From a virus: a DNA stretch of 10,210 bases. The stretch lies in the UHGV virus genome UHGV-0225709, one strand, 5' to 3'. How positions within the stretch are numbered: position 1 is the first letter of the stretch; each line of letters begins with the position of its first letter. Below the pieces are notes generated by a model. That model searched no databases. It was not told the DNA's origin and saw only the letters and a program-made list of their open reading frames with translations. Below are positions 2,704 through 5,453 of this stretch, in pieces. The position numbers were made by a program, and so were the translations under genes.

Positions 2704-2760
2704 GTGAAATTAGCTATCAGGCTTCAATTACCGCTGGCATTCGCATCAAAGGAGAGGAGC

Positions 2761-3117
2761 ATGGAAATAAAACCAGAGGATGAGTTAAGCAATATCGTTT
2801 TATTTCCGGTAAAAGAGGATGACCCTCGTAATCAGGTTAATTTTCTTTATGAGCCATCGGAAAGACCATATTGTCATCACGCCTCTGTCCGGGTTGACGA
2901 AAAAGAGCGTCAGGTCCGCTGTAAAATCTGCGGTGCAGTTGTGGAGCCGTTTGACTGGATACTCTCTGTGGCGAAAAGAGAAACCAGACTGGCAGATGAT
3001 GTAAGGCTATTGCGCCAGGAGGAACAGGAAAGGCGGAAAAATATAGAAAAGTTAATTCAGATTGAGCGTAACGCGAAAGCGCGGATACGCAGGGCGACAA
3101 AATCCAGAACTGAATAA
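2761..3117 (+). CDS. Hypothetical protein with a putative zinc ribbon (C-x17-CxxC) and a charged, probably coiled-coil C-terminus
   Basis: ATG 2761 preceded by SD aggag at 2750-2754. Product MEIKPEDELSN...CHHASVRVDEKERQVRCKICGAV...RLLRQEEQERRKNIEKLIQIERNAKARIRR. The track ORF starts at GTG 2704 in the same frame; that alternative start is not excluded and is 12 nt downstream of a second copy of the ggtaattttcaggag element. Confidence 0.6.
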   Translation: MEIKPEDELSNIVLFPVKEDDPRNQVNFLYEPSERPYCHHASVRVDEKERQVRCKICGAVVEPFDWILSVAKRETRLADDVRLLRQEEQERRKNIEKLIQIERNAKARIRRATKSRTE

Positions 3118-3167
3118 ATAAATTTAGAGCTGTAAATAAAATCTAATCCTTAACTGGAGGTATATTT

Positions 3168-3380
3168 ATGTTAAATACACAGAAAGCCATTAATGCGGAA
3201 AAATATAACGAGTGGGCAAGAAAATTCTCTGAGCAGATTTTTAAAATTACTGGCGATGAGAATGCGGCAAAAAATGAATTAGAACCGTGGACGCCTGAAG
3301 GAGCCGACTCAAATTATTGCTGGAGGGAGGTTGATCCAGTTGATGCTGCAAATGAAGCTATGAGTTATTACAACGATTAA
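3168..3380 (+). CDS. Small acidic hypothetical protein (70 aa); first gene of the AT-rich cargo segment
   Basis: ATG 3168 with SD ctggagg 6-12 nt upstream. The product has 14 Asp+Glu against 7 Lys+Arg by my count. Lies in markedly AT-rich DNA. Confidence 0.6.
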   Translation: MLNTQKAINAEKYNEWARKFSEQIFKITGDENAAKNELEPWTPEGADSNYCWREVDPVDAANEAMSYYND

Positions 3381-3390
3381 TGTCAGGAGG

Positions 3391-3406
3391 CCGCCCGAAA
3401 GGGCGG
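3391..3406 (+). other. Perfect 6 bp GC stem with GAAA tetraloop (ccgccc-gaaa-gggcgg) directly after an AGGAGG and before two ATGs
   Basis: Seen directly: aggagg 3385-3390, stem 3391-3396 / 3401-3406, ATGs at 3409 and 3413. No U-tract follows, so it is not a canonical intrinsic terminator. May be an RNA processing or translational control element. Confidence 0.5.
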
Positions 3407-3492
3407 TAATGAATGGTCACATTATTTAGAAAAAATATCCGCGAAAGAGTAGAACAACAGAATTTCTGTTTCTCATTCTGTTTATCGTGTTG

Positions 3493-3630
3493 ATGATACC
3501 GATATCCCCGCTAATCCTAGTCTGGATAATCGGAAAAATAATTGAGCCAGTTATTGAATTGTATAACGACGTGGTATGGGCGTCATTCAACACACTGCAC
3601 AATAAAATTAATCCGTATAAGGAAAACTGA
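3493..3630 (+). CDS. Candidate small hydrophobic (single-pass membrane?) peptide, 45 aa
   Basis: ATG 3493 overlaps the stop of a 26-codon upstream ORF (3413-3493) in a TGATG arrangement. Its own stop TGA 3628-3630 sits 1 nt before ATG 3632 of the next gene. Product MIPISPLILVWIIGKIIEPVIELYNDVVWASFNTLHNKINPYKEN has a hydrophobic N-terminal half. Too short for the ORF track. No classical SD of its own, so expression would depend on coupling. Confidence 0.4.
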   Translation: MIPISPLILVWIIGKIIEPVIELYNDVVWASFNTLHNKINPYKEN

Positions 3631-3631
3631 T

Positions 3632-3895
3632 ATGGCAACTTTGACAAAAAAAGAACGGGCATGGTTGAACGAATTACAGGAAGTTCTTGATCGCTGTCCA
3701 TCACCGAAAAAAATTGGCTTTTACACCATTGGCGATAAAAGCATTTACCTGTATGACCTACGCCGCATGGATGAAATCATGGAGGCTCTTGATAATCGTT
3801 CGTCAATGGATTGGTGTGTTGCTGTCCATGATATGAATGCAGGGTTTGATGAAAAGATTTTGTTCCCCTCATCAGTTGAAAGCACAGCAGGATAA
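3632..3895 (+). CDS. Hypothetical small protein (87 aa), last gene before the terminator
   Basis: ATG 3632 with SD aagga at 3619-3623. The track ORF begins at TTG 3542 in the same frame, but the internal ATG with SD is the better start. Product MATLTKKERAWLNELQEVLDRCPSPKKIGFYTIGDKSIYLYDLRRMDEIMEALDNRSS... Followed 37 nt later by an intrinsic terminator. Confidence 0.6.
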   Translation: MATLTKKERAWLNELQEVLDRCPSPKKIGFYTIGDKSIYLYDLRRMDEIMEALDNRSSMDWCVAVHDMNAGFDEKILFPSSVESTAG

Positions 3896-3931
3896 GGACC
3901 CAGCAAATATACACAACCTATAAAACACTAA

Positions 3932-3956
3932 AGCGCCTCAGGGGCGCTTTTTGTTT
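3932..3956 (+). terminator. Rho-independent terminator closing the rightward early/cargo operon
   Basis: Stem agcgcc (3932-3937), loop tcagg, stem ggcgct (3943-3948), followed by tttttgttt. Confidence 0.75.
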
Positions 3957-3982
3957 GCACAAAAGTGCACAAATTTGCACAA
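3956..3982. repeat. Three direct TGCACAA repeats at exactly 10 bp phasing, followed by a T7 tract
   Basis: TGCACAA at 3956-3962, 3966-3972 and 3976-3982. Helical phasing puts the sites on one DNA face. Candidate protein-binding array (small terminase/cosB-like or a regulator). Confidence 0.5.
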
Positions 3983-4052
3983 TTTTTTTGAACGACTTTT
4001 TACCCTTCCGGCCCGCATGGCGGCTGGATCCGTCAAGGATCCGTGCGTGCAC

Positions 4053-4076
4053 AAAAAAACGCGCTTTTTCTGCGCG
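4053..4076 (-). terminator. Candidate Rho-independent terminator for leftward transcription (short stem)
   Basis: On the minus strand: CGCGC-agaaaaa-GCGCG followed by TTTTTTT (plus-strand aaaaaaa at 4053-4059). The stem is only 5 bp, so moderate confidence. Convergent with the plus-strand terminator at 3932-3956. Confidence 0.45.
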
Positions 4077-4353
4077 CAGGTGACGGGGGAACAGCCCGCG
4101 TTTCAGGGGGTAAATAGCATTCCCTGAACGATGTCGCAGAGATACAACAGAATGGCTGTATTTCTCACGCTGAGCGTGAAAAAGACGTGAGGGCTTTTGA
4201 TTTGATGGGGTGAAAGGTAAGGCCGTCAAAATCGCACTGAGACGGCGAGAACATGCAGTCAACGCGGTGGGATTGCGTAAGAGTCTGACTGTCGATGATG
4301 GCAATCAGCAGGAAAGCGTCGTGAAATTATCTGATTGATACAGGAGCTGGAGA

Positions 4354-4382
4354 GCCGGGGCATAAATTTTTTATGCCCCGGC
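4354..4382. other. Inverted repeat / hairpin immediately downstream of the portal gene
   Basis: gccggggcat (4354-4363) pairs with atgccccggc (4373-4382), extendable through flanking A/T. Lies 25 nt past the Q-like stop. No clear U-tract on either strand. Confidence 0.45.
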
Positions 4383-4406
4383 GAAGCAGCAGACAAGCGA
4401 AGCGCG

Positions 4407-5453
4407 TCAGGATGTGGGCTGGGTGTCTAACAGTGCGTAAGGGTTAAAGCGGATCACCTTTTCGCCAAGCCAGTCATTGATGTGCTTCATGGCCTCCATG
4501 ACGGGCATCAGTTCGTTAATTGCGTAAACCCGCGCGGCCTTCTCCACATCACCAAACGCACTTTTTTCGCCCGGCATCGCCCCCATCAGTTGCGGCGGAA
4601 CGCGGTGCGCAGCCAGCACATCATCACGGGATGCCGCCTTAACATTCATGAACTCATCCTTTGCGGTGATCTGCTGGAACGGCAAAATTTGCACCCCCTC
4701 TTTGCCCCCGTTGGGCGCATGAATGAGCACGTTTTTAAACGCACCGCCACCACGCGCACCCTGTAACGTTTCTTTCAGGGAGTCCATGCTTTCGCGGTTT
4801 ACCTGCGCTGCACCGATGTAGATGATGCACCCGGCATGGGATCCGTTGTCGTAATACAGTTTTCTGAACATGTCCGCCGAATGAGACAGGCTGGCCGAGA
4901 GTAATGCGCCAAGATATTCCGGCATGCCGTAGATTTCCTGGTTAATGTCAGGATTCATCAGGTGGCACACTTTGCCTGGGCGAAACTGAAACGCATCCTT
5001 ACCATCCTGCACATACCACCATGATTCAAGATCGCTTCCGCGTCGCATGTATTTCGCTAGGGCGTGCCGTAATTTAAGCGGTTCGCCGAGCATATTGCTT
5101 CGAAGCTCAAGGAATGCGTTACCGAACACAAACCAGTCCAGCGCCAGCGCCGAGAAATCCTGCCGGGAAAGCAGCGGGTGCGGGATGTAGCAACCGAGTA
5201 ATACATTGCGCTTAAAGTAAAGCGCAGACTGATGCCAGGACGTTTGCCGGGCAGCTCTTGCCAGACCGTACCAGTCCACCGGTGTTTCATACCACCGCCC
5301 GTTATCAGCACAGTACATATTGTCCAGCAAATCATGCCCGGTCAGGCGATAAGGACCATCAAATGTGAATGCACTGAGCGATGATTCTTTCCTGAGCGCA
5401 TCAGCGAGATCAATGCGTGAACTCATGCGCACTTTTTTATTTTTTCTGCTCAT
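4407..5453 (-). CDS. Q: Portal protein, P2 gpQ-like
   Basis: 348-aa ORF on the minus strand with SD GGAG 5 nt upstream of its ATG (complement of 5451-5453). Size and position (adjacent to and co-oriented with large terminase, next to the cos region) match P2 Q. The start overlaps the terminase stop (ATGA). Confidence 0.8.
   Translation of the reverse strand: MSRKNKKVRMSSRIDLADALRKESSLSAFTFDGPYRLTGHDLLDNMYCADNGRWYETPVDWYGLARAARQTSWHQSALYFKRNVLLGCYIPHPLLSRQDFSALALDWFVFGNAFLELRSNMLGEPLKLRHALAKYMRRGSDLESWWYVQDGKDAFQFRPGKVCHLMNPDINQEIYGMPEYLGALLSASLSHSADMFRKLYYDNGSHAGCIIYIGAAQVNRESMDSLKETLQGARGGGAFKNVLIHAPNGGKEGVQILPFQQITAKDEFMNVKAASRDDVLAAHRVPPQLMGAMPGEKSAFGDVEKAARVYAINELMPVMEAMKHINDWLGEKVIRFNPYALLDTQPTS

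What the first reader, a model, noticed from the sequence alone, without database searches (positions are those of the whole stretch)
3385..3415. Hairpin placed exactly between a consensus SD and its candidate start codons
AGGAGG (3385-3390) is followed by a perfect 6 bp stem and GAAA tetraloop (3391-3406), then ATGs at 3409 and 3413. Linear SD-to-start spacing is too long (19-23 nt), but the folded hairpin would bring the SD within normal distance. A similar structure-dependent arrangement has been described for some phage T4 genes. Alternatively the hairpin is an RNA processing or stability element separating the acidic-protein gene from the micro-ORF chain.
Basis: inference. Interest (0 to 1): 0.4.

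Follow-up and report, generated by a model that had tools for sequence, protein, structure and literature searches.

The report
Hairpin-split ribosome binding site, lambdoid prophage
A very stable small RNA hairpin sits between a strong ribosome-binding sequence and the start of a small, here frameshifted, phage membrane-protein gene. The same 26-base unit precedes at least five unrelated genes in E. coli/Shigella lambdoid prophages, so it is probably a portable "split" translation start of the kind known from phage T4, though this is untested.

Summary
AGGAGG (3385-3390) abuts a perfect 6-bp G+C stem with a GAAA loop (3391-3406; a G3390·U3407 pair could make it 7 bp; -12.4 to -15.5 kcal/mol), and ATGs lie at 3409 and 3413.

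- ATG 3413 is the real start. It belongs to a DUF4014 gene (3413-3630).
- The "micro-ORF chain" is that gene, broken by a one-base loss in an A-run (3430-3435).
- ATG 3409 is incidental.

The unit TCAGGAGG-CCGCCCGAAAGGGCGG-TA recurs in well over 100 Escherichia/Shigella lambdoid prophage contigs. It follows two different upstream contexts and precedes at least five unrelated gene families. Their start codons lie 6-11 nt after the stem, and all but one family lack an SD of their own.

The key natural control is that DUF4014 genes without the hairpin carry AAGGAG + 6 nt + start, while those with it carry AGGAGG + 16-nt hairpin + 6 nt + start. That matches T4 gene 38 (22 nt reduced to 5).

Stem substitutions are all wobble-preserving, but there are no double compensatory changes, so structure is not proven by covariation.

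Best reading, at about 0.5: a split ribosome binding site that also serves as a mosaic junction. A 3' stability hairpin or a mere recombination linker is not excluded. It would be a new member of a known kind, of moderate interest.

The parts
3168..3380 (+). Upstream 70-aa acidic-protein gene with no Pfam match. Its stop codon TAA is at 3378-3380. This is one of two alternative left-hand contexts of the element.
   Evidence: ORF list. PGAP annotates the identical gene in E. coli E41. There is no Pfam hit. The family is restricted to Escherichia/Shigella.
3385..3390 (+). Shine-Dalgarno sequence AGGAGG, directly abutting the stem. G3390 may pair with U3407.
   Evidence: Sequence. Bases 3385-3389 are 0.68-0.91 unpaired in the ensemble. 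Variants in relatives (GGGAGG, AGGGGG, AGGAGA, CGGAGG) mostly keep a core of at least 4-5 nt.
3391..3406 (+). Hairpin: 6-bp stem CCGCCC/GGGCGG closed by a GNRA tetraloop GAAA (3397-3400).
   Evidence: -12.4 to -15.5 kcal/mol, pairing probability about 1. It is retained in 76 of 80 loci chosen through the upstream protein and 77 of 80 chosen through DUF7167. Wobble variants still fold.
3407..3412 (+). 6-nt A/U-rich spacer UAAUGA between the stem and the start codon. It contains no SD. U3407 is a possible 7th pair partner. This is where the module junction lies in relatives.
   Evidence: Sequences diverge immediately after GGGCGGTA in loci with different downstream genes.
3413..3415 (+). ATG start codon of the DUF4014 gene.
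   Evidence: PGAP places the start at this position in E41. Intact alleles give a 72-aa protein from this ATG. The N-terminus MxTLFRK is conserved in relatives.
3413..3630 (+). DUF4014 (PF13198) gene for a small single-pass membrane protein, frameshifted here. The A-run 3430-3435 is A6 where intact alleles have A7 or AAAAGAA.
   Evidence: Pfam hit of the second half, E = 2.6e-14. Inserting one A restores a 72-aa ORF. PGAP labels it "DUF4014 family protein, frameshifted". Allele table.
3409..3411 (+). Incidental out-of-frame ATG opening a 6-codon ORF. Not a gene start.
   Evidence: MNGHII*. It is absent from most alleles, which read TAAGAAATG.
3380..3409 (+). 9-codon micro-ORF (MSGGRPKGR*) spanning the SD and hairpin. 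Its ATG overlaps the upstream stop (TAATG) and its stop overlaps ATG 3409. Considered as a coupling relay and judged not general.
   Evidence: Sequence. It is open in all variants that follow the 70-aa gene, but its ATG is absent in the spacer context, which reads ACATCAGGAGG.

Best explanation
The 26-nt unit TCAGGAGG-CCGCCC-GAAA-GGGCGG-TA is most likely a split (noncontiguous) ribosome binding site on the early polycistronic mRNA of Escherichia/Shigella lambdoid prophages.

Proposed mechanism:
- The hairpin forms essentially all the time and loops out 16 nt.
- AGGAGG pairs with the 3' end of 16S rRNA while the start codon, 6 nt beyond the stem in this window, sits in the P site. The effective SD-to-start distance is then about 5-6 nt rather than 22.
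- In this window the gene served is DUF4014 (start 3413), which is itself inactivated by a frameshift.
- The unit ends exactly where modules are exchanged. It therefore also acts as the conserved junction at which different cargo genes have been joined, each inheriting a ready-made initiation signal.

What is shown: the anatomy, the predicted stability, the recurrence in front of unrelated genes, and the SD + 6 nt arrangement of hairpin-less DUF4014 genes.

What is inferred: that ribosomes actually use the upstream SD across the hairpin, and that the hairpin helps rather than hinders.
For: 1. Geometry. There are 22 nt between the SD and ATG 3413, and 6 nt remain once the 16-nt hairpin is formed (5 with the G·U pair). 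T4 gene 38 goes from 22 to 5 nt and gene 25 from 27 to 11, and there stem-destabilising mutations lower initiation (review PMC3014915; also PMC7297116).

2. Stability and accessibility. Stem pairing probability is about 1 and the SD is mostly unpaired. The fold is -15.5 kcal/mol, z = -3.6.

3. Recurrence in front of different genes. The same SD+hairpin precedes DUF4014 (start 6 nt after the stem), DUF7167 (7 nt), Ea22-like MTELTKE/MQDIKEN proteins (9 nt) and an MGITKERLLEI protein (11 nt), in both upstream contexts. Except for the 11-nt family, the spacers (TAAGAA, TAGTTAA, TAATGAAAA, TAATAAATA) contain no SD.

4. De novo initiation is needed in the spacer context. There the nearest upstream ORF stops about 90 nt away, so the downstream gene cannot be served by termination-reinitiation, and the only SD is the one 5' of the hairpin.

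5. Natural control. DUF4014 genes not preceded by the hairpin, in at least 5 different upstream contexts including P2-like prophages, read AAAGGAGAGTGA(T/G)-(G/A)TG. That is an SD, 6 nt, then the start, the same 6-nt distance that follows the hairpin.

6. The one lineage that lost the hairpin (L035/L044; -3.7 kcal/mol, z = -0.66) has also lost the upstream SD (GGAAGA). It has GAGAGG, derived from the 3' arm, 9 nt before its ATG.

7. Substitutions.
- All four kinds of single stem substitution seen are C-to-T changes that give G·U on the + strand RNA: 5' arm positions 2, 4 and 6, and 3' arm position 4.
- G3390A gives an A-U pair with U3407.
- No G-to-A change that would break a pair was seen.
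- The wobble variants keep the fold at -12.8 to -13.6 kcal/mol.
- Loop variants GAGA and GGAA remain GNRA.
Against: - No experiment bears on this element, and no paper mentions it.
- There is no compensatory double change. The covariation score equals its shuffled controls. Four of four wobble-preserving changes is only p of about 0.06, and one loop variant (TAAA) is not GNRA.
- The family is shallow. Among 24 haplotypes the SD hexamer is as variable (0.108) as third codon positions (0.087), and the arms (0.03-0.04) are not significantly more conserved.
- One downstream family has its own GGAG at normal spacing after the hairpin (TGGAGATAATAATG), so the hairpin persists where bridging is unnecessary.
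- A few copies are followed by no co-oriented gene (L087, L096, L188).
- A/U-rich spacers could support SD-independent initiation.
- In this particular window the served gene is frameshifted.
- G3390, the last SD base, is predicted to be paired.
Confidence: 0.5

Rival explanations
1. Intercistronic stability or processing hairpin. The stem-loop blocks 3'-to-5' exonucleases, or marks a processed end, so that the upstream part of the early transcript (replication genes, the 137-aa gene and the 70-aa gene) outlives the variable cargo downstream. On this reading the adjacent SD and the nearby start codon are incidental, or are served by ordinary A/U-rich initiation.
For: - The hairpin travels with the upstream sequence, not with any one downstream gene.
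- It is kept where the next gene has its own SD.
- It is kept where a convergent cassette follows.
- It is a very stable GNRA-capped G+C stem in an A+T-rich region (GC 0.39).
- The same 16-mer serves as the stem of genuine terminators, followed by T-runs, in unrelated phage contigs.
Against: - There is no U-tract, so it is not an intrinsic terminator.
- A 6-7 bp stem is short for an exonuclease barrier. This rests on established knowledge of REP-type stabilisers, not on a test here.
- It does not explain why an SD always abuts the stem.
- It does not explain why at least five unrelated genes start 6-11 nt after the stem without an SD of their own.
- It does not explain why hairpin-less DUF4014 genes have an SD at exactly 6 nt.
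- The copies with no downstream gene were found by searching for the exact hairpin, so their retention of it is ascertainment.
Confidence: 0.22
2. Recombination linker only. The unit is a short conserved boundary sequence at which lambdoid phage modules are exchanged by homologous recombination. It is conserved because it spreads with recombinants, and the hairpin as such has no RNA-level role.
For: - Unrelated sequences flank the unit on both sides, with joints exactly at its edges or inside it (L287-L289 have a breakpoint in the 5' arm).
- Phage ArgO145 carries two copies 1.07 kb apart that bracket three genes.
- A second conserved linker (TAAATTTAG...AATCCTTAACCGGAGG) recurs likewise.
- The boundary-sequence model is established for some phages (PMC3233612).
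- Diversity data cannot show purifying selection on the stem.
Against: - Substitutions in the stem are strand-asymmetric: only C-to-T changes that give G·U on the sense RNA, never the mirror G-to-A. That is expected for an RNA structure, not for a DNA homology patch, although n = 4.
- A linker need not be a perfect palindrome with a GNRA loop placed between an SD and a start.
- This reading is compatible with the best explanation rather than exclusive of it.
Confidence: 0.15
3. Protein-binding regulatory hairpin. A phage or host protein would recognise the GNRA stem-loop next to the SD, acting either as a translational repressor or as a boxB-like antitermination site.
For: - It is a G+C stem with a GNRA loop, as in the lambda boxB fold. 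This is established knowledge, not tested here.
- Its position abutting an SD would allow occlusion.
- Two of the three loop variants remain GNRA.
Against: - It lies far from the early promoters, after the replication genes, and no boxA precedes it in the window.
- No candidate binding protein is linked to it.
- No Rfam match.
- Nothing in the data requires a protein.
Confidence: 0.08

Closest known systems
Split (noncontiguous) ribosome binding sites of phage T4 genes 38 and 25 (Gold 1988; Nivinskas et al. 1999; Malys & Nivinskas 2009; summarised in PMC3014915 and PMC7297116)
   Same: An SD lies too far from the start in linear sequence (22 nt here, 22 nt in gene 38). A stable hairpin lies wholly between them and leaves about 5-6 nt (5 nt in gene 38, 11 in gene 25). 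The location is intercistronic on a phage polycistronic mRNA.
   Different: - No sequence relationship to the T4 sites.
- The host phage is a temperate lambdoid prophage.
- The unit is portable, preceding at least five unrelated genes rather than one orthologous gene.
- The hairpin is a minimal 6-7 bp GNRA stem-loop abutting the SD with no gap.
- No mutational, probing or toeprint evidence exists.
Conserved boundary (linker) sequences at module junctions of mosaic phage genomes
   Same: A short conserved non-coding sequence at gene boundaries, flanked by unrelated modules, present in two copies in some genomes. Joints fall at its edges.
   Different: Here the conserved patch has a specific RNA-like anatomy (SD, perfect hairpin, GNRA loop) and a strand-asymmetric substitution pattern. 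That suggests a function beyond providing homology.
Intrinsic (Rho-independent) terminators and intercistronic stabiliser hairpins
   Same: A G+C-rich stem with a tetraloop. The identical 16-mer is used as a terminator stem, followed by T-runs, in unrelated phage contigs.
   Different: No U-tract follows here (UAAUGAAUGG), a gene starts 6 nt downstream, and the terminator scan does not call it.
Lambda boxB (nut site) hairpin
   Same: A short G+C stem closed by a GNRA-type loop on an early phage transcript.
   Different: It has a true tetraloop rather than a pentaloop, a 6-7 bp rather than 5 bp stem, and no boxA. Its position is after the replication genes rather than just downstream of an early promoter.

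Membership tests
Split / noncontiguous RBS (T4 gene 38/25 type) | An SD complementary to the 16S 3' end lies at a linear distance from the start codon too long for normal initiation (more than about 13 nt). | tested here: met
   AGGAGG is at 3385-3390 and ATG at 3413, with 22 nt between them.
Split / noncontiguous RBS (T4 gene 38/25 type) | A stable hairpin lies entirely between the SD and the start codon and reduces the effective spacing to about 5-11 nt. | tested here: met
   The 16-nt hairpin at 3391-3406 folds at -12.4 to -15.5 kcal/mol with pairing probability about 1, leaving 6 nt (5 with the G·U pair). In relatives 6-11 nt remain.
Split / noncontiguous RBS (T4 gene 38/25 type) | There is no alternative SD at canonical distance from the start. 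| tested here: met
   The spacer UAAUGA has no SD. The same holds for TAAGAA, TAGTTAA and TAATGAAAA in relatives. The one exception is a family with TGGAGATAATA. The 3' arm GGGCGGU is a weak SD-like sequence but is sequestered in the stem.
Split / noncontiguous RBS (T4 gene 38/25 type) | Stem-disrupting mutations lower translation, and compensatory mutations restore it. | not testable with these tools
   This needs reporter fusions or toeprinting. The only natural proxy is lineage L035/L044, where loss of the stem coincides with a relocated SD.
Split / noncontiguous RBS (T4 gene 38/25 type) | The structure is conserved phylogenetically, with covariation. | tested here: inconclusive
   97% of cells are paired. 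There are 4 one-sided wobble-preserving changes, 0 double compensatory changes, and the score equals its shuffled controls.
Intrinsic terminator | A G+C-rich hairpin is followed immediately by a U-tract. | tested here: not met
   The hairpin is present, but the tail is UAAUGAAUGG. The scan does not call it, while it does call 3930-3950.
nut site (boxA + boxB) | A boxA motif lies a few nt upstream of a GNRA-like hairpin, just downstream of an early promoter. | tested here: not met
   No CGCTCTTA-like motif appears in 3340-3390. The element lies after the replication genes.
Mosaic boundary / linker sequence | A short conserved sequence at gene boundaries is flanked by unrelated modules in different genomes. 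| tested here: met
   There are two upstream contexts and at least five downstream gene families, with joints at the edges of the unit. ArgO145 has two copies.
Any Rfam RNA family | A match to a curated covariance model. | tested here: not met
   There is no hit overlapping 3385-3415 at E <= 10.

The most novel reading that the evidence does not exclude
The SD+GNRA-hairpin unit is a natural portable expression adaptor. On this reading a single 26-nt cassette does two jobs.
- It is the homology patch at which lambdoid phages swap cargo genes.
- It is a context-insulated split RBS that gives any gene joined to its 3' edge a defined initiation signal, because the hairpin stops neighbouring sequence from sequestering the SD.

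That would be a phage-evolved equivalent of the insulated RBS parts used in synthetic biology, and a mechanistic reason why mosaic joints fall where they do.
Probability: 0.2. Interest if true: 0.55.

Novelty: new member of a known kind. Interest (0 to 1): 0.38.

Why it matters
If ribosomes do use the SD across the hairpin, this would be the first split RBS described outside the T-even phages and a few host genes. It is also present in thousands of E. coli/Shigella prophage copies, including Stx-converting phages.

It would show that such sites can be modular and can be inherited by unrelated genes through recombination. That would link two classic topics: non-canonical initiation and phage mosaicism.

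Practically, it fixes annotation. The start of DUF4014 is ATG 3413, the gene here is a frameshifted allele, and there is no chain of micro-ORFs.

If it is only a linker or a stability hairpin, it is an ordinary feature.

Tried and rejected
- Intrinsic terminator: rejected, because there is no U-tract and the scan does not call it.
- Known RNA family: none in Rfam at E <= 10.
- Micro-ORF relay: the idea was that ATG 3380 overlaps the upstream stop, the ORF is read through the hairpin, and reinitiation follows at 3409/3413. It is open in every variant that follows the 70-aa gene. I rejected it as the general mechanism because its ATG is missing in the equally common spacer context.
- Hairpin as the coding 3' end of an upstream gene: in the spacer context no ORF of 40 aa or more covers it.
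- Covariation proof: not obtainable. The 70-aa protein family is confined to Escherichia/Shigella. The single genome-contig scan, run with DUF4014, returned only 3 loci. Formal pair counting shows no double changes, and diversity is too low to show selection.
- Other SD-hairpin-ATG arrangements in 1.5 Mb of related loci: a script found essentially only this element and its variants.
- Literature: no hits for the hairpin sequence or for DUF4014, and no lambdoid split RBS. The Pas sRNA preprint concerns other loci.
- Origin from a P2-like terminase gene: one contig (L134) carries a 30/31-nt identical stretch in frame, but a codon-degenerate scan found no other such case.

Full report
**1. The observation.**
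The sequence is as described.
- AGGAGG is at 3385-3390, CCGCCC at 3391-3396, GAAA at 3397-3400 and GGGCGG at 3401-3406.
- G3390·U3407 is a possible seventh pair.
- ATGs lie at 3409 and 3413, with 18 and 22 nt between the SD and the two ATGs.

The hairpin folds at -12.4 kcal/mol (6 bp) or -14.4 (7 bp). In a 200-nt context its pairing probability is about 1, while SD bases 3385-3389 are 0.68-0.91 unpaired. The 34-nt SD-to-start stretch folds at -15.5 kcal/mol, z = -3.6, with 0 of 200 shuffles as stable.

It is the only perfect 6-bp stem with a GNRA loop in the window, against 0.10 expected. It is not terminator-like because no U-tract follows, whereas a canonical terminator is called at 3930-3950. 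Rfam has nothing.

**2. What surrounds it.**
The left part of the window is the early-right region of a lambdoid prophage.
- YdaT-like gene at 673-1098.
- Replisome organizer at 1164-2240.
- DUF977 gene at 2281-2703.
- A 137-aa zinc-ribbon protein gene at 2704-3117.
- A 70-aa acidic protein gene at 3168-3380.

This part is 99% identical to a prophage of E. coli E41.

Downstream of the hairpin, 3413-3630 is a DUF4014 gene (PF13198, E = 2.6e-14 for the second half). It has lost one A from the run at 3430-3435. Restoring the A gives a 72-aa single-pass membrane protein identical in length to intact alleles. PGAP annotates the E41 copy as "DUF4014 family protein, frameshifted", starting at the equivalent of 3413.

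From about 3628 rightwards the window is 97% identical to P2-like phages such as PhiR44_2 and P88 relatives.

**3. The hairpin is part of a recurrent unit.**
I fetched 80 IMG/VR loci through the 70-aa protein, so the set is unbiased with respect to the hairpin.
- 76 have the identical stem-loop right after the stop codon.
- 2 have CCGCCT (a G·U pair) and 1 has a GAGA loop.
- 2 (L035, L044) have a degenerate version.
- What follows the hairpin differs. Sequences diverge immediately after GGGCGGTA.

A scan for the exact 16-mer found a second and commoner left-hand context. This is a ~90-nt non-coding spacer, AATCCTTAACCGGAGGGATTTCTGCACCCTCAGAACATC. It follows the 137-aa gene or an Ea22-like gene. 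No ORF of 40 aa or more covers it.

Phage ArgO145 has both kinds of copy, 1.07 kb apart.

Across all lambdoid instances the next gene belongs to one of these families:

| Downstream gene family | Start codon, nt after the stem |
|---|---|
| DUF4014 | 6 |
| DUF7167 | 7 |
| Ea22-like MTELTKE / MQDIKEN | 9 |
| MGITKERLLEI | 11 |

Only the MGITKERLLEI family has an SD of its own (TGGAGATAATAATG). In a few cases nothing co-oriented follows.

Of 80 loci fetched through DUF7167, 77 carry the intact unit and 3 have a breakpoint inside the 5' arm.

**4. The most informative comparison.**
Loci fetched through DUF4014 itself fall into two classes (also UMNF18).
- With the unit: AGGAGG, then the 16-nt hairpin, then 6 nt, then ATG.
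- Without it, in at least five different upstream contexts including P2-like prophages: AAAGGAGAGTGA(T/G) followed by GTG or ATG. That is an SD, 6 nt, then the start.

The hairpin therefore behaves like an insertion between an SD and an otherwise normal 6-nt spacer. This is what a bridged SD predicts.

The one lineage that has lost the hairpin (-3.7 kcal/mol, z = -0.66) has also lost the upstream SD (GGAAGA). It has GAGAGG, derived from the 3' arm, 9 nt before its ATG.

In the spacer context the nearest translated ORF ends about 90 nt upstream. Termination-reinitiation cannot serve the downstream gene there, and the only SD is the one 5' of the hairpin.

**5. Is the structure under selection?**
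The evidence is suggestive only.
- Every single stem substitution found is a C-to-T change that gives G·U on the sense RNA. These are 5' arm positions 2, 4 and 6, and 3' arm position 4.
- G3390A gives an A-U pair with U3407.
- No pair-breaking G-to-A change was seen.
- The wobble variants keep the fold at -12.8 to -13.6 kcal/mol.
- Two loop variants (GAGA, GGAA) stay GNRA and one (TAAA) does not.

Formal counting gives 97% of cells paired, no double compensatory change, and a score equal to its shuffled controls. Among 24 haplotypes, diversity is 0.087 at third codon positions, 0.108 in the SD, 0.03-0.04 in the arms and 0.02 in the loop. The family is too shallow for a verdict, and the SD hexamer is not strictly conserved, although most variants keep a core of at least 4-5 nt.

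The 70-aa protein family is confined to Escherichia/Shigella, so deeper comparison was not possible.

**6. Mechanism.**
My preferred reading, at about 0.5, is a split RBS of the T4 gene 38/25 type. In T4, 22 and 27 nt are reduced to 5 and 11 nt by an intervening hairpin, and destabilising mutations lower initiation (PMC3014915; PMC7297116). Here 22 nt are reduced to 5-6.

The unit also marks the joint at which cargo genes are exchanged, so it doubles as a boundary sequence in the sense discussed for mosaic phages (PMC3233612).

The rivals are these.
- A stability or processing hairpin belonging to the upstream transcript (about 0.22). In its favour, the hairpin travels with upstream sequence and persists where bridging is not needed. 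Against it, there is no U-tract, the stem is short, and the SD adjacency and constant start distance go unexplained.
- A mere recombination linker (about 0.15). In its favour are the joints at its edges and the two copies per genome. Against it are the strand-asymmetric substitutions and the specific RNA-like anatomy.
- A protein-binding hairpin (about 0.08). Nothing requires it.

The first two are compatible with the preferred reading rather than exclusive of it.

**7. Novelty and verdict.**
No paper in the searchable library mentions the sequence, DUF4014, or a lambdoid split RBS. If confirmed, this would be a new, widespread and unusually modular member of a known kind. In this particular window it stands in front of a frameshifted gene.

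Interest is moderate at 0.38.

Noticed in passing
window 3428-3436 (A-run 3430-3435): The DUF4014 frameshift sits in AGA AAA AAT. A_AAA_AAT is a classic -1 slippery heptamer, and a -1 slip there would yield a full-length 72-aa product (RKNYPRKS). The A6 allele appears in 24 fetched instances, in 4 sequence versions, with the downstream frame intact. It could be a plain pseudogene, a phase-variable homopolymer, or programmed frameshifting.
   Followed up: partly
window ~3628-3956: The window is a lambdoid/P2-like hybrid. Left of about 3628 it matches lambdoid prophages (E41, 99%), and right of it P2-like phages (PhiR44_2, 97%). The DUF4014 gene and the 87-aa gene (3632-3895) occur in both phage types and could be the crossover homology. 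No phage record or complete E. coli genome in the collections covers 80% or more of 3100-4400.
   Followed up: partly
window 3118-3160; L002 4296-4336; L083 3289-3330: A second conserved intercistronic linker, TAAATTTAG...AATCCTTAAC(C/T)GGAGG, recurs after unrelated genes (the 137-aa gene and an Ea22-like gene). It supplies the SD of the 70-aa gene in the window.
   Followed up: partly
L083 3320-3345 (spacer context, not in the window): Where the 70-aa gene is absent, its orphan SD GGAGGG is followed by CACCCTC, an anti-SD-like sequence predicted to pair with it (5 bp, 9-nt loop). This gives two hairpins in tandem before the downstream gene.
   Followed up: partly
L134 11454-11484: A P2-like terminase small-subunit (gpM-like) gene from a metagenomic viral contig contains CAGGAGGCCGCCCGAAAGGGCGGCAATGAA, 30 of 31 nt identical to the element. 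It lies in frame (QEAARKGGNE) and is followed 10 nt later by an in-frame ATG. A codon-degenerate scan found it to be the only such case. Its origin and meaning are unknown.
   Followed up: partly
L096 9404-10899: A convergent two-gene cassette (a 184-aa membrane protein and a 310-aa protein, minus strand) is inserted exactly at the 3' edge of the hairpin. The SD there has decayed to AGGAAG. It may be a moron or defence cassette.
   Followed up: no
related loci, e.g. sequences GGC-GGGGGA-GAAA-TCCCTC: Another recurrent GNRA hairpin in these prophage contigs shows apparent compensatory variation: GGGGGA/TCCCTC, GAGGGA/TCCCTC, GGGGGA-GTAA-TCTCCC and GGGAGA-GTAA-TCTCCC. It is always preceded by CC[ATCG]GGC. 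Its identity was not determined.
   Followed up: no
window 4354-4382: A perfect 13-bp inverted repeat, GCCGGGGCATAAA / TTTATGCCCCGGC, with a 3-nt loop, lies just beyond the end of the minus-strand portal gene (4407-5453). It is probably that operon's terminator or a cos-proximal element.
   Followed up: no
window 3930-3986: A bidirectional terminator-like hairpin at 3930-3950, AAAGCGCC...GGCGCTTT with T-runs on both sides, is followed by overlapping palindromes (GTGCAC repeats) at 3956-3986. This is at the lambdoid/P2-like transition.
   Followed up: no
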